This document shows, piece by piece, positions 12,099 through 64,000 of a stretch of 64,000 nt of DNA. The stretch covers positions 99,262,001 to 99,326,000 of the forward strand of contig OZ024742.1 of NCBI GenBank assembly GCA_964016885.1, in the 5' to 3' direction. This DNA is from Eledone cirrhosa. Lineage: Eukaryota. The stretch's first letter is position 1; every line of letters begins with the position of its first letter. The notes under the pieces were generated by a model, which made no database searches, was not told the origin of the DNA, and saw only the letters and a list, made by a program, of their open reading frames with translations. A program made the position numbers and the translations under genes.

Positions 12099-12974
12099 TA
12101 GGTGGGTCAGAAAAGTTCCAGGACTGATGTCACAAAAGATTTATTTCAAACCCAAACTTCACACTAAGAGTTTTCTCCTTCAAAGTAATCATCCTGGAGT
12201 CTAATGCACTTTTCCATTCTTTTCTGCTACGTTTGCATGCACTCCTGGAAGGATTCTTCCGTGATCCTCCGAAGTTCTGTCGTCACAGCCTCTTTGATGT
12301 CGTCCACGTCTTCAAAACGGGTCCCCTCCGGGTCGTACTTGAAGATCCAAGACTCAACACCGGTGATGACTGTCCCTAGCAAGTCTGGTCCGGTTTCAAG
12401 ACGCTCGAGGATTTCCTGGCACACTTGCATGCGTCGACCCTTCTGGTCATCGTTCAGCAGTTTTGACACCATCTTCGCACAGACTTTCCACATGACCAAA
12501 TCTTCAGTGGGAATCTTCCAGGCGCTGTCCCGATTCATGCCCAGCTCATTTGCCATCAGTCGAACAGTCAGCCGACGATCGCTACACTCCATCTACCTGA
12601 CGCGCTCAACATTCATCTCAGTCCTGGTTGTTAGGGCCTTCCGTTACTGGGGTCATCTTCCACGCCCTTGCACCACTCAAAAACACGTGAGCGTGACATT
12701 GCCTCATCTCCATACACTTGCTGCAACAATCCCAATGCTTCTGGCGGAGTTTTCAAGTTTGTTCGTGGCTCTGTGCTCATTGTTTGACGACCCGAAACAG
12801 AAGACATGTATATAAAATTATGAAGAAAAATGTTTGATCGCTGCAGAGAGCTAAGATTACAGTTACATACTCCAGGGGGATTACTTTGAAGGAGAAAACT
12901 CTTAGTGTGAAGTTTGGGTTTGAAATAAATCTTTTGTGACATCATCAGTCCTGGAACTTTTCTGACCCACCTCG
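12098..12974 (-). mobile_element. Internally deleted mariner (Tc1/mariner) with ~100-bp TIRs and TA target duplication
   Basis: TIR C(T/G)AGGTGGGTCAGAAAAGTTCCAGGACTGATG at both ends. Transposase motifs VYGDEAMSRSRVFEW, VEDDPSNGRP, DRRLTVR, ITGVESWIFKYDPE (fused to GTRFEDV) and DYFEGEN. Confidence 0.95.
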
Positions 12975-13095
12975 TATATATTTATATATATATAAGATTG
13001 TTTGTGTGTGTATTGTGTATGTACATATAAGTGTGTATATATATATATTCATATATATATATATATATATACACGCACAGATATATATATATATA

Positions 13096-22112: not shown

Positions 22113-22138
22113 ATATATGTATATAAGTATGTATACGT

Positions 22139-22696
22139 ACAGTAGTATGTATATATATACATACATGCACACATATGTATAGTACTGTACGTCTGTACAC
22201 ATATATCTATGTAAGTATACATACTTATATTTAGGTACCAGCCGTACTAAGGGTGAGATATGAAATTTCGTTTCATTCTTATCCATTTATCGTTTCGACT
22301 AACTCACTCGATATGCAAATTAGGCTGCTCAGCCGTTTATATGCATAAGGAAAGTATGCACTTTCAAACGTTCAATCATCTGAAAGAAAGGTATACGATG
22401 CTGACGATAGCTAATAAGCTTGAAACTAGTACATCGTTCCTGTGTCAGTGTTGAACAAAAGGGCGGCAATGGTTGCCGAGCACGGTACGGCGTAATTCTG
22501 GCTGGTTGTTTACAAACAAACCGAACATTATAATAAATGTTCGGTGAACCCATACGTACGTATATATATGTGTGCATGTATGTATATATATACATACTAC
22601 TGTAAGTCTGTACACATATATGTATGTAAGTATACATATTTATATGTAGGTATCAGCCGTACTAAGAGTGAGAAATATAATTTTGCTTCATTCTTT

Positions 22697-22702
<6 letters not shown>
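22139..22702 (+). mobile_element. Non-coding ~415-nt HHR unit with ~100-bp terminal direct repeat and a short 5' inversion
   Basis: 22183-22285 is repeated at 22598-22700, and 22139-22180 is the reverse complement of ~22565-22603. Second copy at 50603-51248; fragment at 23570-23645. Confidence 0.88.
22395..22437 (+). ncRNA. Minimal type I hammerhead ribozyme, intact core
   Basis: ACGATG CTGACGA t-AGCT-AATA-AGCT-t GAAA CTAG TA CATCGT. Confidence 0.9.
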
Positions 22703-22741
<39 letters not shown>

Positions 22742-23520: not shown

Positions 23521-23669
23521 ATAATAATAAATTTGAAGACTAAAATCCAAAGAGGTCTCGATAAGGCTAAATATATACATACTTATATTTAGGTATCAGC
23601 CGTACTAAGAGTGAGAAATAAAATTTGGTTTCATTCTTTTCTATTTATATATGCCTCTCTATTTATATA

Positions 23670-28195: not shown

Positions 28196-29098
28196 CTATG
28201 ATTGTAAGTAGATAGGTCAAAACGAAAGTAGATATTCGTTTTCCTTCCAGTTTACAGTATCTTCACATAATTTTCTGCAACGCTGTAATTTTTGTTGATT
28301 TTTAATATGTATGTTTATATGTTACATGTTATATTTTATGGTGATCATTTAGCCCAACAGAGATTTTCTGGCAGCACATGCCGATATCACAGACTGAATA
28401 ATAGTATGCCATTTGAGAAGATTTATGATGTGGATGCTGGAATATCTGGGGTACCATTTCTAAATAGTGAAGTGCCGATATGACAGAACCTGCTATTACC
28501 CAGAAGATATATATTCATTGAAACAATCTATTGCCACCATTAGAATAACACGCCTGGTTCTGTTGCTGCTGCATTTGTTGTTCTTCTAGTTGCTACTGTT
28601 GATTCTGTTCTTGTTACTGTTTTGTTCTTTCTATTGCTATTTTTTGCTGTTTATATCTAATCAGATCTGGCTAACTGCATTGGTGTAACAAAAGCATTGT
28701 TTTACAAGTGATAAATAATTGCAACAAATATATAAAAAGAATAGATTCAAATTTATATATTTAGTATGAACGATAATAATGATTTCGAACTTTGGCACAA
28801 AGCCATATATGTTTTCGGTGTGACGTGGAAATGGGGTTCTTTCACACCTCTTCAGTGGCGGACCTAGAACTTCTTTAAAAACTCCCCTCTCCCGACATCG
28901 TTCAACCATCAGCAATCCATCTGTCTTCCGTTGCTGGGTGATTTATCACCTGACCAAAGCCGACCAATTGAAATCGGAGAATTCATAACAATATTCTCTG
29001 AACAGTCAGTAATGTTCGCTTCCATACCTCTTCGTACATTCAGAGAAATTCTGAGCAGAGGCCATATGAAGCATAGGCTTCGAACACATATATTTATG

Positions 29099-47235: not shown

Positions 47236-47990
47236 TATATATTGTTATATTTAGGGATGGTCAGTTTGCCAAAATTCCCAATGGAAAGAATCACAATCAC
47301 CATATAATTTTCAGTTCATCTTTATCTTTATTGTTTGTTATTCATTCGTTGTCAAAGTTATTTCGCCTGTGACCTTCTCAAATACTATCTGTTTTGTGCC
47401 TCCTCTTTTTCCTGGTCTTAAACTTCTACTCCGTCTTGTGTATGTTTTGTGGTGCATTTTTCTTGCGTCTATCTTTTATTATATGTGTAACGGTGGTGGA
47501 TTGGCAGTATCGGTAGAGGGTCTTACGCCATGCTTTGCAGCAAAGGGTTACGACCCTTTATGGTCTGAGTTCAAATCCCACCGAGGTTAACTTTTCCTTT
47601 CATCCTTACGGAGTCGATAAAATAAAGTACCAGTAACACACTGGGATAATTGCTGGCCTTGTACCAAAAGTAGAAACAATTATAAGTGTAACCTCCGTAC
47701 TTTTTCTAAGTGTTGCCTCAGTACCTTGTGTGGATAATATCTTTATTTGCATGTTATCTATTGAGCCCCAGTATTCTAGTTTGGCATGTTGGTATAGCAC
47801 TAATGTGCTTTTCTCCTTGTTAGGTCCTCGCCAGTGTTCCTTTAATTTATCTCGAATAGTATGGGCTGTCTCTCCTATGCAGTGCAAAATCTTGTTTTTG
47901 CATATACTATATACTATATTTCTAGTATTGCAGTTTATCTTACAGACTATGCAGTTTCCATCAGTACACAGGTTCGGTGCTACCATATAG
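47236..47990 (-). mobile_element. PLE family D-related 3' fragment (GIY-YIG, degenerate HHR) interrupted by a SINE
   Basis: CTDGNCIVCKINCNTRNIVYSI...CIGETAHTIRDKLKEHW...LYQHAKLEY. Terminus GGTCACAGGCGAAATAACTTTGAC resembles 58173-58204. Confidence 0.8.
47492..47681 (+). mobile_element. SINE family 1 with target-site duplication
   Basis: Full head, core and tail. Flanked by TTATA(T/A)GTGTAAC at 47479-47491 and 47680-47692. Confidence 0.9.
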
Positions 47991-48217
47991 GCAAACTATG
48001 CAGCCGCCGAGGGCGATGGTTTCATGGGGCTCATTTCTGCAAATCAACAATAATTTTGAAAAATAAATAAATAAAGTTCAGTTTTATTGAGGGTCGCTTT
48101 TCATCCTGGTTTATTTCATACAGGGACAAATAAGCGCGTAGATTCAGTCTGATCAGAACAAGCAAAATGAGTGAGTAAAAATTGCACGTATACGAACGTT
48201 TCAGGAGGTAATTACGC

Positions 48218-48505: not shown

Positions 48506-49544
48506 GAATTGTCTTTCTCTCTGCATTTATCCCTCAGCCAAATTTGGTTTCAAGTGTATTAGCAGAGGTGGTTGAATCCTTTCTCAATTTGGAGGGGGGG
48601 GGGCAAGATTTGGGCAATTTAGTTGTAGTTTAGCTCTTTGACCTCTAAAATAGTCAGAAAACTTCGATATACGATAAATATAACATGTACATAAATTGTA
48701 GCGCATATCCAAATTGATGTGTGTTTTGGTAGTTTGGAGAGAAAATAAAATTATAGGAGGAGGACATGAAAGTTCCACGGACACTGTATATGTATAATTT
48801 TAAAAATTACGCTTCATACCCTTCCCTAAGAGGTTAATATATGGAGCTTCTTCGCATTTGGTAAGAAACTGGTATTATACCCAATTTTTTCATCTCTCAT
48901 ATATATATATATATATATATAATAAGTTGACGGAACTAGCATGGGTTTCACTGCTAGGACCGGTTGCATCTCAGCGCACTCAATAAGTAATATATATATA
49001 TATATACATTCATTTTCTATGGCTATTAGTGAGCTTTGTTACTCTACAGTTTCACCTACGCACTCACAGGATCACCTCTCTTCTCTGGTGAGTACGCAGG
49101 TAGACTCCAGAAAACAAGGCTTAGCCATAATAAATGAATATTTAAACTCTACTTCGCTATTGAGATTTCATACATACGTCCGTCAATAATACAGGTACTC
49201 TCAGATCTTAAATAATCTTCCCCACCCACCTTATTAATTTTCCCATGTTTTACACCCCCAACCCACTTATTAATTTTTGCTAATCTATCTACGGCGAAAT
49301 TGTGTTGTAAGTGATTCATATTGATACAGCAGCTGGAGAATCTAGTAATTTTATTTTACATTAAAAAGACATTATATATGACAAAACGAGAACATTACAA
49401 GAAAACCCATATCTAACAACTTACACTATACAATTACTAACTAACTAAGCCCCCCCCCCATTATTGCCACGTTATTGCCAACCCATATATATTTGGGACC
49501 CGGGAGGGCCACAAAAGTCTCCTCTTCTCTATGTCTATCACACA

Positions 49545-50210
49545 AACTCTCTCCATTACCACTCTCTATATTAATTAACACCAATCTCTCACCCTCTCTA
49601 TATCTACTACAGGGAAAGCTCTTCCAATACTCTTTTCTATCTCAATTAACACCAAATTGTCCCTCTCTATATATCTACTACACGGAACTCTCTTTCAATA
49701 TCCTCTGTATATCAATTAACACCAAGCTCTCCCCCTCTCTATATCTACTACACGGAATTCTCTCCCAACCCACTGTCTATATTAATTATCACCAAACTAT
49801 TCCCCTCTCTATATCCAATATGCAACACTGTCTTCCAATCCCCTCTCTATATTAATTATCACCAAACTATCCCCCTCTCTATATCTACAATAAAACATTC
49901 TCTTTCGTTCCCTCTCACTCTATCCATCACTAGCAACCTCTCTCCCTCTCTATCAATCCTCTCACTCTATTCATTACCACCAAACTATCACCCTCTCTAC
50001 TGCAAACATACAACACACTCGCCCAATTACCCCTTAATATCAATTAACACCAAACTCCCCCTCTCTCTCTATATTTACTACATAGAATGCTCTACCAACC
50101 CCCTCTCTATATCAATTAGCACCAAGATTTATCCCTCTCTATATCTACTACACGGAATACTCTTCTAATACCCCTCTCTTTTTCAATTAACACCAAATTC
50201 TCCCCCTCAT
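49545..50210. repeat. ~70-bp minisatellite, about 9 degenerate units
   Basis: AATTAACACCAA...CCCTCTCTATATCTACTACACGGAA recurs at ~49572, 49642, 49712, 49781, 49851 and onward. Confidence 0.9.
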
Positions 50211-50494: not shown

Positions 50495-50606
50495 GTGAAG
50501 TCGCAAGGCTTAGTTGTTAGAGCATTTGGCTTGCAATCGGGAGGTTGTGAACTCAATTCTCGGACCGAGTAGAGAATTATCTCCTTGAGCAAGATATTTT
50601 ATTCAC
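50495..50606 (+). mobile_element. SINE family 2, 5' part
   Basis: GTGAAGTCGCAAGGCTTAGTTGTTAGAG...CCTTGAGCAAGATATTTTATTCAC. Confidence 0.7.
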
Positions 50607-51246
50607 CGAACATTTATTATAATGCTCGGTTTGTTTGTAAACAAACATCCCGAATTAAGCCGTACAGTGTTTAGCAACCATCGTTGCCCTTTTGTTCAAC
50701 ACTGATAAAGGAACGATGTACTAGTTTATTACGTCTGTATACATATATGTATGTACGTATACATACTTATATTTAAGTAACAGCCGTACTAAGACTGAGA
50801 AATGAAATTTCGTTTCTTTTTTTCCATTTATCGTTTTCGGTGAGCCCGGCCGATTAACTCACTCGATATGCAAATTAGGCTGCTCAACTGTTAATATGCA
50901 TAAGGAAAGTATATACTTTCAGACGTTCAATCATCTGGCAGGAAGGTATACGGTGGCAAGCTTGAAACTAGTACATCGTTCCTTTGTCAGTGTTGAACAA
51001 AAGGGCAACGATGGTTGCTAAACACTGTACGACTTAATTCGGTATGTTTGTTTACAAACAAACGGAGCATTATAATAAATGTTCGGTGAATCTATACGTA
51101 CATATATATATATGTGTGCTTGTATGTATATATATATACATACTATTGTACGTCTGTATACATATATGTATGTACGTATACATACTTATATTTAAGTAAC
51201 AGCCGTACTAAGAGTGAGAAATGAAATTTCGTTTCATTTTTTCCAT

Positions 51247-51248
<2 letters not shown>
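50603..51248 (+). mobile_element. Second copy of the ~415-420-nt HHR unit with a ~120-bp 5' inversion; HHR 5' box deleted
   Basis: 50603-50727 is the reverse complement of 50965-51090, and 50730-50828 is repeated at 51150-51247. AAGCTTGAAACTAGTACATCGT is retained. Confidence 0.88.
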
Positions 51249-51319
<71 letters not shown>

Positions 51320-54236: not shown

Positions 54237-55942
54237 AGTGGTCGAACACTGGAAGGTAATATCCGTAGTGGTAGAGCACTCAGTCCAAGGGACGAGTTAG
54301 GTAGAAGTGGTTACACAACAGTTAGTTGACCATACCGAGAACAATTGTTTCACCTTAGCTGATCTTCAGCTCGGAATAGGCATGATTATAGGAACAGGAA
54401 GGACAACCGTACTAATGCGCATGCGTAGAAACCCGGTCACCTCGCACAGGCAATACTAGACTGCGTGCAAGAGGTGAAATGGAAATAACTGCGAAAGTCC
54501 GAAACATTTTTAGGTTGAAATAAAATTACAAAGAATCAGTTCGGAGCCTTGTATTTATGCAATAGTTGTTTGGCGACGTGTGGACAACGTGTGAAAAATT
54601 CAATTCTCGTGTTTAGGCAATCACTATTGCGTAATCGCTTTAGAATAGTTATTCGTTCGTCAATACATAAGCCACACGTCGGATTTCCCCTTGCGTATGG
54701 CTTGGACTTAGTGATGGTTTCCATTGAATGGAGTAGTCTATAGTTGAGTCCTTGAGGGACCATACGTGGCTCGCGAGTTTCGTGGATGAACGTCTGTCCG
54801 GGTATCTGAAGGTAGACAGGTGGTGCAGGAAACGTTCCTTGAATAGGCCCTCCGCCATGCCCACATAGGATTTGACCTCCTGTGGTTCGTTTGGACGGAT
54901 TGGAAGTGACCACAGCTTCATAGATTACAGCTGGTGTGTTGCATTGCTGTTGAAGGAGGCAAGCTTCAGGCTTACGGCAAGAACACCATGGTGGGGTGTT
55001 GCTCCTAGGGCTGCTGGTGATGTGGGCCTTCATGTTCTTAGCGCAGGAGTAGCCTAGTTTAACTTTGTGTCGGTTAAAGATGGAGCGGTATTCATGACAT
55101 ATGGGGAAGTGTCTATCTAAGAGGACTAGAAATTGTTTTCCTACATTGGTTTTAACGTTGAGTGAGAAGGGAGGAGAGAACCAGATAGTTTGTCTATTGT
55201 TGCACTTACTTTTCTTAATGGTGTTGTTTCTAGTGGGAGAGTAAATGATAGGTTGTGAGAAGCCGCTGTTAGCCAACGCCCTATTATAGTAGGGTGCCGC
55301 CCTGTCAAAGATAGCCTTATTAGAGGAGAGGTTTGAAATTCTAGCACTGATATTCTTAACGAAGTTTCTAAAAACAGTGGGAGTGTGGCATGAGTACTTG
55401 TAAATGTAATTAAGTTTCTCGTTTAGCTTATGAAAGGGCCTGTGGGTGTGTGTGCGAAGGTCTAAATTAATGTCTAAGAAATCTAAGCTAGAGAGGTTGG
55501 TGGCTACTGTAATCCTACGACCTAACTCATTGAAGGTAGAAGCTAAGTCTTTTTTAAACCGGTCGAGGTCGTGACCACTTTTATGGCTCGATAAAGTCAG
55601 TCCATCGTCACGGTATATTCCCGTGTGGAAGTCCGGGAATCTAACACGTAATATGTTTAAGATAAAAATGCCAACCAAGTCACATACGTCAGCACTGTCA
55701 AACGATCCCATGGAGACGTCGAACAGGTCTGAAGATGAGGACTTCTTTGCCCAGGCTACTCCGTCGTTGAAGGGGAGGGTTTTCCGGGAGTGAGCGTTGA
55801 TTTACCTGTCTAAATCATCGACGGTGGTATAAGTGGTACAGAATTCCAACGCTTTGTTTAACAGGGTCTCTTAGATCGACGGGTAAAAATCGACAATGTC
55901 AAACTGTGTGAACTTCGCTTTTTGGGATTTTGAGGAGTTAAA

Positions 55943-57082: not shown

Positions 57083-58349
57083 TTCATGTTTTCTATTTAA
57101 TTTTGGTTGGAGTTCATTTATGTTTATTGCCTCTGTGATTTGTCTAAACATTGCGTCTTTTCTGTGTGTAGATTCTATTTTTATTTCTATGTTCTCTAAT
57201 TTACCCTTATGTTCTATTTTAGCATGTTGGTAGAGTACAGATGATTTTTTTTACTATCTTGAAGGTCTCGCCAGTGTTCATTTATCCGTTCCCCTATACT
57301 ACGAGCTGTCTCACCTATTTACACTATACTCTTATCTCTACATTGTCCTTCAGTTCATCTTATGCTATATACTACATTTCTAGTTTTACAGTTAATGTGG
57401 GTGCTTAATTTACAGATTATACGTTTCTTATCTATACAAGGAGGTCTTTGAAAAGAGTATGTATTGCTAATAATACAAATTTAGAAGGGCTCTAGATAAA
57501 CATAAACTCAATATTAAGATATTAGAAAGACCAGGTACCCCATAAAAACACTTATTTGCAATACATAATCTTTTCAAAGACCTTCTTGTATAGATAAGAA
57601 ATGTATAATCTGTAAATTAAGCACCCACATTAACTGTAAAACTAGAAATGTAGTATATAGCATAAGATTAACTGAAGGACAATGTAGAGATAAGAGTATA
57701 GTGTACATAGGTGAGACAGCTCGTAGTATAGGGGAACGGATAAATGAACACTGGCGAGACCTTCAAGATAGTAAAGAATCATCTGTACTCTACCAACATT
57801 CTAAAATAGAACATAAGGGTAAATTAGAGAACATAGAAATAAAAATAGAATCTACACACAGAAAAGACGCAATGTTTAGACAAATCACATAATCAATAAA
57901 CATAAATGAAGTCCAACCAAAATTAAATAGAAAACATGAATGAGACAGCAACATCACAACTTATAATTAAGGACAAAATGAAAACACACACGCACATAGA
58001 ACAAACAACCAACCAGTAACCTGTAAATAAATAAACAAATATAAACACACACAGACACCCGGATGTAACACATGCGCAAACTAAGCACACAACACACACA
58101 AAAACAAGATGGCGTAGGACAGAACAAAGGAGAGGCACAAAAACAAAGAAAAGAATCCCCAGTCACTGAAGAGGTCACATAATGTGTGACGAAAGAACTT
58201 TGACAATATATAAACAATCATCTGGTTGTGGAACCAGCCAACCAACCGGAAATTTATAAATTCCTGAATTTATAAATTTATTATAATAAATTGAAGTGAA
58301 AAAAGTGGTGCGTGTGTTTCTTTTTGGCAACATGACCCTCCCAAAGTAT

Positions 58350-58356
<7 letters not shown>
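57083..58356 (+). mobile_element. PLE family D: GIY-YIG, 3' UTR and HHR, preceded by a ~385-bp inverted duplication
   Basis: IKILERPG...CIICK...CKTRNVVYSI...YIGETARSIGERINEH...LYQHSKIEH...RQIT...PKLNRKHE. 57083-57467 is the reverse complement of 57559-57940. Confidence 0.9.
58162..58204 (+). ncRNA. Minimal type I hammerhead
   Basis: GTCA CTGAAGA g-GTCACAT-AAT-GTGTGAC GAAA GAAC TT TGAC. Confidence 0.8.
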
Positions 58357-58408
<52 letters not shown>

Positions 58409-61196: not shown

Positions 61197-64000
61197 TAGC
61201 AGTTTAGATCGGCGTTGCTCGGGTTTGTTCATTTGCTATGAAAAGTTACAAACAGGTAAACGTAGCTTGAAAGCGCATAAGCTTATCAATTAAGTGCATA
61301 AAGCAGTTGAACCGGTTATTAATAATTACGAACCAATTAGCATTTTGGACAATCTTCCAATAGCGAATTTAGTAGACCAAAGTTGCAAGATGGTGGCCCT
61401 GATGCTGCTGGGTGTCAGATCTGTCCGCTAAGTGTGACCCTACCAGTTTTCCAGACGGCATAGCTCCAACACCTGCACCAATATCTATAGCACCTCTTTG
61501 TAGACGATATTGCGTGTCATCCCTTGGAGGAGTGTAAGCAAAAACTTCATTCCTGCTCCCTACGCGGGAACAGGCATCATAAAGTTGGCCATGGGAGAAG
61601 CATGGCTCCCCCAAATGGATGCTCTCCACCCACAATGTTTGCCCATGTGACTTGTCAATGGAATTGGAAAAACATGGTCTCACCGGAAATTGGGATCGCC
61701 GGAAATCGAACGGGATATCTGACGCCGAGGGGGAAAAGTTCATCCTTGGAATGAAAACATTCTCCCCTCTGCCGCACCCCATTACAATGGTGGCCTCAAT
61801 CAAGTGGGGCGTCGGTGACTTGACGACCATGCGAGTACCGTTGCACTGCTTTGGTGGACGCAAGTTCCTTATTATCATAATGGGACAGCCAACCCTAATC
61901 TTAAGAATTTGAGGTGGGAGCCCTGGGGGCTCAAGGGAATTTAATAACTCAACCGGATAATTAACGATATCGTCGGGGTCTGACGTCCGGTCGATAGATT
62001 TGAAGATGTGTTCTTTACCGGGAATTTTCTCAATCAGCTGCTCGTTAATAAAATTAACCATGGTATTTTTCGAAGCGATGATGGCTCTTTCGCTGAGCCA
62101 ATCAAGGTTTTTAAAGTTAGATGAGATATTAGGAAAAACTGCTTTCCAAAGGTCAGAAGGGCTGCTCACAATGTTGCACAGGGAGTCGATTGCTATGCCG
62201 CCCTTGTCATCTGCAGGGACCTTGCCCTCACCAAGTGCTAAAATATTCTGAGCAAATGCTGCAGACATGTTGTCACCATGCAAATGAGCACGCATATTTG
62301 TGCTCAGGTACAAACTCTTCACCAGGAGCCACAACATGGACGGCTTAAGACAGGCACGCACTTCATCAGCTCTTGTCCCTTTGGGGATGACAGGCAGCGT
62401 TTGCCGAAAATCCCCTGATAGCAGAAGGGTTACGCCACCCATAGGAGCCGTAAAATTCCTAATGTCTTTCAGGGTCCTGTCCAATGCCTCAACGGCACCC
62501 TCGTGTGCCATTGTGCACTCATCCCAAACAATGAGGCAACATTTTTGAGAACCAGAGCTTCGTGTAAACTCTTGCTGATATTGCATGTTGGTGTCTCAGC
62601 TTTTACCAAATCCAAGAGGAGTTTAAATGTCGAATGTGCTGTCCTGCCTCCCGGCAGCAAAGTAGCAGCGATCCCGGACGATGCAACGGCCAGCGCAATT
62701 TTTTTCTCCTGAAGAATTTTAGCGAGAATCAATTTCGTTACATAAGTTTTTCCGGTACCCCAGGAGCATCGAGAAAGTAAATACCCCCAGTCTGATTTTG
62801 AACCGCATCAATGATAGTTAAATAGGCCAACCTTTGGTCCGACAGAAGTTTGGGTTCATCTTCCTCTAAGTATTGGGAAAGAGATTCGATGTCATATTCT
62901 GTTTCCCGCAACAAATCCGGGGCCAACGAGTTAGCTTCCTCTCTGACGGTTGACGGCAAGCCATACGTCGTCAACTCACTCCCACCCATGCCGAGGAGGG
63001 CGTCCTCGATATCAATGAGTGCCCTGTTGTAGATAATGTCGCTGTAACCAACTTCCACTGAAGTATACTGCAGATGAGCCAGGCGCAGGAAGTCCTCAGA
63101 CATGAAGTCTCTGTACTTGACCCATAAAGATTTGGGATCACCCAATTCACACTTTTGAAGCAAAATAGCAAAGAGTTCCCTTAGATCTTTAGGTGATTTC
63201 AACAAAGCACCCTCTGCTAAAGTGGAATCCCATTGCGAATCATCTTCCAAAAGACCACGCTTAAAGCAGGCTTCCCGGTACGTATCACATATTTCTTCAT
63301 CAACAGTTTTGATGTCCTGAAAACTTTGTGGGCCTACAACTTCGTGCAGAAGAAGGCAGAGATGAAAGCACTCATGCTGACTTGGGGACACAGTGAAAAC
63401 CCTTCCAAGACAGCTGTCAAATTTTACACCAGGATGTCTTTCACCAGCCTGACCTGAATTTCTTCGCACCCAAGTGTTTTTCGACCATATAAAGTAGGAT
63501 GGAACCTGGGAGTACACAATTGTTTGCGCAAATGTATCGAACTGGAAAAGTTTGAAGAAACCCGTCAGAGTGGTCTATTTCGGATCGGCGGCCAACTTCG
63601 CGGCGGGTTGGTCCGTAAAGTAAACCCTTTGCCCATTTACCACATGTACCGCAAGCTGTACGATGGTGGGGTGACGTTGGTGTAGGGATAAACCAAATAG
63701 GCGCCAAAAAGCTTCATTGCTACTGATGTACCGCCCCGCCAGGTATTCTGTGACCTCGTCCCTGCTATTTTCAGCTTGAAATGCGAACATTGCGGCATCA
63801 GAACCCTTATTTACATATTTGCATATATATTTTATCGACTTAACGGAGTTGCAAAACTCAACGTTGATGTGGGCGTTGAACATCTCCAAGAGAAGCGGGC
63901 AGTAAGGGACCACCCATCTATTGTCGACTTGACCTCCCCTTACTGTTGTGGTGAAGCCACCGTTCTCGGACCGTCTCCGCCTGTACAGGGGGTACCCGTC
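61196..64000 (-). mobile_element. Helitron: frameshifted RepHel (end of Rep domain plus PIF1-like SF1 helicase) and 3' terminus; runs off the window
   Basis: VVPYCP..FNAHINVEFCNSVKSIKYICKYVNKGSD; FLDAPG (Walker A, frameshifted); AVASSGIAATLLPGGRTAHSTFK; WDECTM; GDFRQTLPV; CNGTR; KSHGQTL; FSHGQLY..CSRV. 3' hairpin CCGAGCAACGCCG, then CTAG|T at 61196. Confidence 0.96.

What the first reader, a model, noticed from the sequence alone, without database searches (positions are those of the whole stretch)
22139..22702. 415-nt HHR unit with 1.25-unit redundancy and 5' inversion, present twice
Seen: an intact minimal HHR (6-bp stem I, palindromic ACUAGU stem III). Both copies, here and 50603-51248, start their direct block at nearly the same point (TACGTCTGTA), end at the same point against (TA)n, and have different inverted leaders. 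No ORF. Established: palindromic stem III minimal HHRs cleave as dimers. Inference: a non-autonomous circular or tandem RNA template with fixed 3' priming.
Basis: partly seen in the sequence, partly recalled or inferred. Interest (0 to 1): 0.75.

Follow-up and report, generated by a model that had tools for sequence, protein, structure and literature searches.

The report
Penelope-copied hammerhead retrozyme, paired ends
This is one of roughly ten thousand copies of a 430-base non-coding repeat with a hammerhead-ribozyme motif, inserted at TA microsatellites as back-to-back arms that almost always end at two different fixed points, which likely records a Penelope-type retrotransposon enzyme copying one small RNA, probably a circle, from both cut DNA ends.

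Summary
Real, and mostly a known kind. The two copies belong to a 431-nt, ORF-less repeat family: 3,352 exact ribozyme cores, roughly 12,000 estimated. It carries a type I hammerhead whose stems co-vary across four subfamilies, so it is a non-LTR retrozyme by sequence. Corrections: copy 2 has lost its catalytic core, the shared 5' start is coincidence, and there are two fixed 3' ends (A and B, about 60 nt apart), not one. In two-armed insertions one arm ends at A and the other at B in 52 of 55 cases. An autonomous Neptune-type Penelope element in this genome does the same (11 of 11), so a Penelope enzyme very likely makes these copies. cDNA runs through the ribozyme cut site (23 of 24), and repeats within one insertion share variants, which favours a re-ligated circle; uncut multimers are not excluded. 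A 60-kb array proved to be later DNA-level expansion. Cleavage, circles and the partner enzyme are untested. One-sided tails are described qualitatively in print, and this scan noted the same pairing in other families.

The parts
22121..22176 (-). Copy 1 inverted arm; outer end at fixed site A (unit position about 216); covers about u216 to u135 with an internal deletion
   Evidence: left end at 22121, class A; read by eye. The region is near-palindromic, so the alignment is ambiguous here
22179..22705 (+). Copy 1 direct arm, about 1.25 laps of the unit (u165-168 round to u276), ending at fixed site B
   Evidence: alignment blocks, 94% to the family majority sequence
22395..22437 (+). Type I hammerhead: stem I 22395-22400 with 22432-22437, core 22401-22407, stem II 22409-22420, GAAA 22422-22425, palindrome 22425-22430, predicted cut after 22431
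   Evidence: covariation; cleavage untested
22646..22705 (+). About 60-nt 'tail' between site A and site B, present on only one arm of two-armed insertions
22706..22739 (.). (TA)n tract at the site-B end of copy 1 (likely target DNA)
23571..23648 (+). Third, short 5'-truncated fragment (u199-276) ending at site B
50602..50727 (-). Copy 2 inverted arm (u423 to u117); outer end is not at A or B
   Evidence: 97% identical to the matching part of the direct arm
50730..51250 (+). Copy 2 direct arm (u174 round to u276), ending at site B; hammerhead core deleted at 50955-50958
51251..51319 (.). (TA)n tract at the site-B end of copy 2

Best explanation
This is a protein-free 431-nt hammerhead repeat whose arms end at two fixed sites next to (TA)n, one site per arm, and it is likely a retrozyme copied by a Penelope-type enzyme from a probably circular RNA. 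Shown: a dispersed family of thousands, two fixed ends about 60 nt apart, A-with-B pairing of the arms, seamless laps, read-through of the ribozyme cut site, and a co-varying RNA fold. Inferred: copies with two or more ribozymes are transcribed and cut as dimeric hammerheads, and the monomer is ligated by a host ligase. A Penelope RT-endonuclease, perhaps as a dimer, then cuts both strands of a (TA)n tract and primes one DNA end at site A and the other at site B of the same RNA. Each cDNA runs round the circle for a variable length, and the two 5' ends are joined head to head, or one arm is lost. Some insertions later grow into long arrays by DNA-level duplication.
For: 3,352 exact 36-mers of the ribozyme core, reversed control 0; 11 of 39 unselected ribozyme sites are exact, giving about 12,000. 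178 of 217 segments end in two windows, peaking at u219 (50) and u276 (66); (TA)n follows 115 of those 178 and 2 of the other 39. Two-armed insertions in 168 loci: 57 rows, 53 AB, 3 AA, 1 BB, expected AB 28.5, p 3e-12; after removing two double calls, 52 AB, 2 AA, 1 BB of 55. A Neptune-type PLE of this genome has a 60-nt tail and 11 of 11 two-armed insertions are AB. In vitro, an anole PLE protein cleaves and extends both strands of AT-rich DNA, starts at two internal RNA sites that bound the tail, and is predicted to be a dimer (PMC11167929). In loci not chosen by the ribozyme, 23 of 24 arms that reach the cut site pass it (counted). Subfamily variation in the ribozyme falls on free positions. 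20 of 103 predicted pairs show two-sided changes against 7.1 in shuffles; circular fold z -7.7. Laps and arms of one insertion are 4.8% and 5.2% apart against 8.7% between loci, rare alleles are shared about 12 times more often, and 18 of 19 multi-lap insertions have laps closer than the median outsider.
Against: Neither cleavage nor a circular RNA is shown. In the anole PLE, ribozyme-dead RNA was used equally well and uncut RNA was the main substrate in vitro. Eight of nine Xenopus retrozyme dimers did not cleave. Long arrays exist (about 60 kb at C2:382.98-383.04 Mb) and could supply linear multimeric templates. That array is not a clean one-pass product: some units 2-40 apart are identical, and 550 unit pairs share three or more derived alleles against 331-416 in permutations. 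Laps were closer to each other than to every outside unit in only 5 of 19 insertions, so lap similarity may largely reflect subfamily. No autonomous partner with shared sequence was found. The stem II base pair in this subfamily is U.U. Much of the covariation comes from one distant subfamily, and the structure was derived from the same alignment. Copy 2 itself does not show the A-with-B pattern.
Confidence: 0.65

Rival explanations
1. Same element and same Penelope enzyme, but the template is an uncut linear multimer transcribed from tandem arrays, primed internally at A and B. No circle is needed.
For: Arrays of 8 to about 136 units exist. Uncut RNA was the dominant substrate for the anole PLE. 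Read-through of the cut site is expected for uncut RNA.
Against: It does not explain why the ribozyme core and stems stay functional across subfamilies up to about 30% apart. The large arrays sampled are 5-12% heterogeneous, whereas young multi-lap insertions have laps about 1-3% apart. No lap-specific alleles were seen at 55 sites. One homogeneous 9-ribozyme array (7 units compared, 1 substitution) could however serve as such a template.
Confidence: 0.25
2. The unit is simply the pseudo-LTR (solo terminal fragment) of an autonomous Penelope-like element that I did not find.
For: Same tail, inversion and (TA)n footprint as autonomous PLEs. Li et al. report that 24 of 57 Xenopus retrozyme families match known elements, nearly all PLE termini. 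Genome searches score only the best candidates.
Against: Past site B the sequence returns to the ribozyme with a period of about 430 nt instead of entering an ORF, in every multi-lap copy examined. In the Neptune-type family the tail is the start of the ORF, while this unit has no such frame. Where PLE-ORF loci held the unit, it was a separate insertion or an abrupt junction, not a terminal repeat.
Confidence: 0.07
3. A DNA-level satellite or fold-back element spread by recombination or circular DNA, with the ribozyme incidental.
For: The long arrays show block duplication. The unit has strong internal palindromes.
Against: Most copies are short and dispersed, with one fixed end at (TA)n and one variable end. 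A-with-B pairing matches an autonomous retroelement. Many stem changes keep G.U pairs, which points to RNA.
Confidence: 0.03

Closest known systems
Metazoan non-LTR retrozymes (Cervera and de la Pena 2020, PMC7229834; Li, Clavereau and Pollet 2026, bioRxiv 10.64898/2026.07.22.740005)
   Same: Tandem unit of 150-450 nt with one type I hammerhead, low GC, no ORF, highly self-paired as a circle, monomers to long arrays, living beside PLEs. Mussel and axolotl examples give circRNA. One axolotl ribozyme also has a U.U pair at the base of stem II.
   Different: In the parts I read, insertion ends, inverted arms, a tail and paired start sites are not described for retrozymes; the PLE link there rests on co-occurrence, shared ribozyme type and pLTR similarity. 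Here no pLTR similarity was found and the link is the insertion footprint. Expression is not shown here.
Endonuclease-bearing Penelope-like elements: partial tandems, inverted 5'-truncated copy, tail, microsatellite targets (PMC8557442, PMC3846280, PMC11167929)
   Same: Head-to-head arms, a tail on one end, two internal RT start sites, (TA)n targets, and a hammerhead in the repeat.
   Different: No RT-endonuclease ORF. The tail is about 60 nt, not 30-40. The papers say the tail is often or optionally on one end; here it is counted as near-obligatory A-with-B pairing. The in vitro study saw no strand difference in start-site use and did not report pairing.
Non-autonomous Chlamys elements such as MRC1 (PMC8557442, passage)
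   Same: Protein-free PLE derivatives forming pLTRs and head-to-tail multimers.
   Different: Those generally resemble their autonomous partner at the 3' end; no such match was found here.

Membership tests
Non-LTR retrozyme | Short tandem unit (about 150-450 nt) with a type I hammerhead in each unit | tested here: met
   431-nt unit; tandem monomers of 408-518 nt from cut to cut at many loci
Non-LTR retrozyme | No coding capacity and no LTR structure | tested here: met
   Longest ATG frames 47 and 74 aa; ends are not LTRs. PBS and PPT were not searched for
Non-LTR retrozyme | [quoted passage not shown] | tested here: met
   16 of 178 arms cross the cut site two or more times (the sample was enriched for tandems); arrays. 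Not met by either window copy
Non-LTR retrozyme | Conserved, highly self-paired circular fold | tested here: met
   z -7.7 against 60 shuffles; covariation above shuffles and slides, with the caveat of shared ancestry
Non-LTR retrozyme | Self-cleavage, probably as a dimer | not testable with these tools
   Core intact in 33 of 39 unselected sites; palindrome duplex -6.8 kcal/mol; no assay
Non-LTR retrozyme | Expressed as linear and circular monomer RNA | not testable with these tools
   Needs raw RNA reads or a northern blot
Non-LTR retrozyme | Target-site duplication longer than 4 bp when present | not tested
   Ends lie in microsatellites (both flanks in 51 of 57 rows), where a duplication cannot be read
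PLE-mobilised element | Partial tandems plus an inverted 5'-truncated arm | tested here: met
PLE-mobilised element | Tail bounded by two fixed RT start sites | tested here: met
   Ends peak at u219 and u276; that these are RT starts is inferred from PMC11167929
PLE-mobilised element | Microsatellite or AT-rich target | tested here: met
PLE-mobilised element | Sequence match to the terminal repeat of an autonomous partner | tested here: inconclusive
   None in the PLE loci of three families that were compared; the search was not exhaustive
Autonomous PLE | ORF with RT and GIY-YIG domains | tested here: not met
PLE minimal hammerhead (min-HHR, PMC4209133) | Helix II of 7-8 bp, helix I of 4-5 bp, almost no helix III | tested here: not met
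   Helix I 6 bp, helix II 4 bp, palindromic 2-bp helix III: the canonical metazoan type I form

The most novel reading that the evidence does not exclude
Penelope-type insertion is an obligatory twin-priming reaction. One dimeric RT-endonuclease holds a single circular RNA and starts the two cut DNA ends at two different sites about 60 nt apart, both running rolling-circle. That would explain the one-sided tail, the head-to-head inversions and the partial tandems in one step, and this 431-nt retrozyme would be a minimal natural substrate that recruits the enzyme by shape rather than by shared sequence.
Probability: 0.4. Interest if true: 0.78.

Novelty: new member of a known kind. Interest (0 to 1): 0.5.

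Why it matters
How Penelope-like elements make their tandem, inverted and tailed insertions, what their hammerheads are for, and which enzyme moves animal retrozymes are stated as open in the papers read (PMC8557442, PMC7229834, the 2026 preprint). This family shows a retrozyme carrying the PLE footprint itself, and turns the 'optional tail' into a counted rule (52 of 55, and 11 of 11 in an autonomous family). That gives a sharp in vitro prediction: single integration products should pair site A with site B. A 431-nt RNA and young intact candidate enzymes in the same genome make the test easy to set up. The class itself is known, so the gain is mechanistic rather than a new system.

Tried and rejected
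Rfam at gathering score: no match in the window. Fixed 5' start: rejected. An apparent pile-up at u121-131 came from the palindromic TA-rich hairpin confusing the aligner. Segmental duplication: rejected, no flank similarity. The 60-kb array as a single rolling-circle product: rejected as stated, because its units show block duplication; the first two units of the 8-ribozyme array also share many alleles. The all-arm cut-site test (1 stop in 152 arrivals) is biased, because most loci were chosen by a pattern spanning the cut; only the, 34 set is used. First-pass A/B counts (39 AB, 4 AA, 0 BB; 49 AB, 11 AA, 1 BB) held false A ends from the internal palindrome and were replaced. Partner search: two protein searches from window ORFs, one from L202 and one degenerate ribozyme pattern gave no ORF-bearing element sharing the unit; L097 was a chance neighbour. 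Tail length does not pick the partner: Neptune-type 60 nt, one Hydra-type 57 nt, another about 67 nt. Sequencing runs: no RNA holder listed; laying contigs of four runs of unknown kind added nothing on expression or ends. Search of earlier findings by sequence: nothing.

Full report
Observation. Copy 1 carries a complete type I hammerhead at 22395-22437, with the predicted cut after 22431. Its stem III is the palindrome ACUAGU: 2 bp as a monomer, and a 6-bp duplex of -6.8 kcal/mol between two copies. Helix I of 6 bp and helix II of 4 bp make it the canonical metazoan form of PMC4209133 rather than the min-HHR. The base of stem II is a U.U mismatch. Copy 2 has lost the CUGACGA core. The periods are 415 and 419 nt; both are deletion variants of a 431-nt family unit. 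The flanks of the two copies have no similarity. A third fragment lies at 23571-23648. Unit coordinates below (u1-u431) start at the first base after the cut.

Family. The genome (3.0 Gb) holds 3,352 exact copies of the 36-nt ribozyme core, with 0 for the reversed control. In 30 loci picked by a pattern outside the ribozyme, 11 of 39 ribozyme sites were exact and 33 of 39 had an intact core, which suggests about 12,000 sites (rough, from one chromosome). That the animal is a cephalopod is my guess from genome size and repeat content, not a tool result. Four subfamilies appear, with units of about 430, 440-500, 420 and 467-470 nt. On 14 cut-to-cut monomers, 20 of 103 predicted pairs show changes on both sides (shuffles 7.1, slid controls 4-6), including stems I and II and a long-range helix next to site A. 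These monomers were picked by a ribozyme pattern, the structure came from the same alignment, and many changes belong to the most distant subfamily, so this is supportive rather than a clean statistic. In the unselected loci, the common variants inside the ribozyme fall on N7, the cleavage-site H (A or U), the mismatch at the base of stem II and a G.U/A-U pair of stem I. The unit folds as a circle at z -7.7 against 60 shuffles.

Ends. Of 217 distinct segments in 120 loci, 86 end at u205-232 (peak u219, site A), 92 at u255-278 (peak u276, site B) and 39 elsewhere. (TA)n follows 115 of the 178 and 2 of the 39. Both sites sit at a short TAT that can pair with a (TA)n primer, and several B ends join (TC)n instead, which suggests the microsatellite is a target. 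The 5' ends are spread round the unit, so the shared start of the two window copies is chance; an apparent cluster at u121-131 is an alignment artefact of the TA-rich hairpin.

Pairing. Many insertions have two arms head to head. In 168 loci the final classifier returned 57 rows: 53 with one A and one B end, 3 AA and 1 BB, against 28.5 AB expected if ends were independent (p 3e-12). Two rows were double calls (L030 listed twice; a false A in the flank of L123), leaving 52 AB, 2 AA and 1 BB of 55. Both flanks are microsatellite in 51 of the 57 rows. Some loci were chosen for having ribozymes on opposite strands, which favours two-armed insertions but not AB over AA or BB. Copy 1 is AB: an A arm at 22121-22176 and a B arm ending at 22705. 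Arms of one insertion are 5.2% apart against 8.7% between loci and share rare alleles about 12 times more often, which fits one RNA, or one source locus, for both arms.

Link to Penelope-like elements. The genome holds young PLEs with long open frames. Pfam gives only sub-threshold RT and GIY-YIG hits, and my labels 'Neptune-type' and 'Hydra-type' are by eye from motif layout and passages of PMC8557442, with no tree. The Neptune-type family (20,092 exact 38-mers) has two ends 60 nt apart, and 11 of 11 two-armed insertions in 30 loci are AB. Hydra-type families have tails of about 57 and 67 nt. None shares the unit's sequence. Weak hints for the Neptune-type family are the 60-nt spacing, the same six bases around site B, and one composite insertion in which a Neptune A arm and B arm enclose two unit arms with no TA between them. 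One direct junction with a Hydra-type ORF also exists. The partner is unresolved.

Circle or linear multimer. In the set chosen outside the ribozyme, 26 distinct arms carry the pattern; 2 stop before the cut site, 1 stops at u2 and 23 pass it (counted). A cut, unligated monomer is therefore not the template. A conserved ribozyme plus read-through points to cutting followed by ligation. Laps within one insertion are 4.8% apart, closer than the median outsider in 18 of 19 insertions but closer than every outsider in only 5, and first and later laps show no clear position-specific allele at 55 sites (lowest p 0.05). Against the circle: long arrays could give uncut multimers, and in vitro an anole PLE did not need its ribozyme. 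I tested whether the array of about 60 kb on C2, which ends exactly at site B plus (TA)n, was one long copying event. Mean divergence is flat with distance, but some units are identical at lags of 2-40 and derived alleles are shared above permutation (550 against 331-416), so it grew by later DNA duplication. Of the three other arrays tested, two showed the same excess (279 against 177-213; 74 against 46-66) and one did not (71 against 88-102). I put the circle at about 0.65-0.7 given the rest.

Unexplained. This suggests target deletion, or TA growth at primed ends.

Literature seen. bioRxiv 10.64898/2026.07.22.740005: parts 1-3 of 5, main text; its supplements are closed and could list more families. 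PMC7229834: parts 2-4 of 6. PMC11167929: parts 1-2 of 4. PMC4209133: parts 1-2 of 4. PMC8557442, PMC3846280 and PMC13282606: passages only; the last, an octopus repeat annotation, has no occurrence of 'ribozyme' in its main text. No supplements were read. The one-sided tail is described qualitatively in PMC8557442 and PMC3846280, and a circular PLE template was proposed in PMC4209133. Seven searches listed no paper that, by title, abstract start or the parts read, counts A-with-B pairing or describes two-armed retrozyme insertions; most subscription journals and Repbase are outside this library.

Earlier notes of this scan. After my counts were made, a word search showed that other agents had noted the same two-armed, paired-end footprint in a 310-nt family and in other elements of this genome, and in other genomes. 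These are unchecked AI notes and not independent support.

Verdict. A real, young, high-copy non-LTR retrozyme with a Penelope insertion footprint. The kind is known; the paired use of two start sites is a useful, testable constraint on an open mechanism. Interest 0.5.

Noticed in passing
window 54240-55801 (-): 5'-truncated Penelope-like ORF (421 aa, Hydra-type by eye) followed by a hammerhead-like motif near 54369 and a tailed end against (TA)n; member of a large family (99 matches scored) with a tail of about 67 nt.
   Followed up: partly
window 57900-58360 (+) and 47606-47995 (-): Terminal repeat of the Neptune-type PLE with its hammerhead at 58166, ending at that family's site A; a decayed GIY-YIG-like fragment at 47606-47995.
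   Followed up: partly
window about 28800-28865 (-): Another hammerhead-like motif with a long stem II and a palindromic stem III, unrelated in sequence to this family.
   Followed up: no
window 61369-63574 (-): PIF1 helicase (Pfam E 1.6e-29) with upstream frames; looks like a broken Helitron (recalled, not tested).
   Followed up: no
window 12227-12981 (-): Frames that look like a broken mariner-type transposase by eye; no Pfam hit for the one piece scanned.
   Followed up: no
window 49510-50208: 70-bp tandem repeat upstream of copy 2; the 5' junction of copy 2 lies inside a tRNA-SINE-like sequence (recalled) that does not resume after the (TA)n, hinting at target deletion.
   Followed up: no
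L278, L277, L276, L275, L224, L212, L223 (G000 C2:382.98-383.04 Mb): Array of about 60 kb and about 136 units of 442 nt that ends exactly at site B plus (TA)n and shows internal block duplications; other arrays over 10 kb at C1:97.0, C1:132.7 and C2:60.6 Mb.
   Followed up: yes
L289:300-1800 (G000 C1:70.93 Mb): Composite insertion: a Neptune-type A arm and B arm, both cut off at about the same position, enclose two retrozyme arms placed tail to tail; may record a template switch or capture.
   Followed up: partly
L205:800-2300: A different 310-nt tandem hammerhead repeat with another palindromic stem III, beside a Neptune-type element.
   Followed up: no
L203:4412-8632 (-): 1,407-aa open frame in which a Hydra-type RT piece runs in frame into a Neptune-type ORF; probably a chance chimera.
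   Followed up: no
L093, L103, L110, L154, L170, L211: A further group of hammerhead motifs with an AU-rich 7-bp stem I and a long, variable stem II.
   Followed up: no
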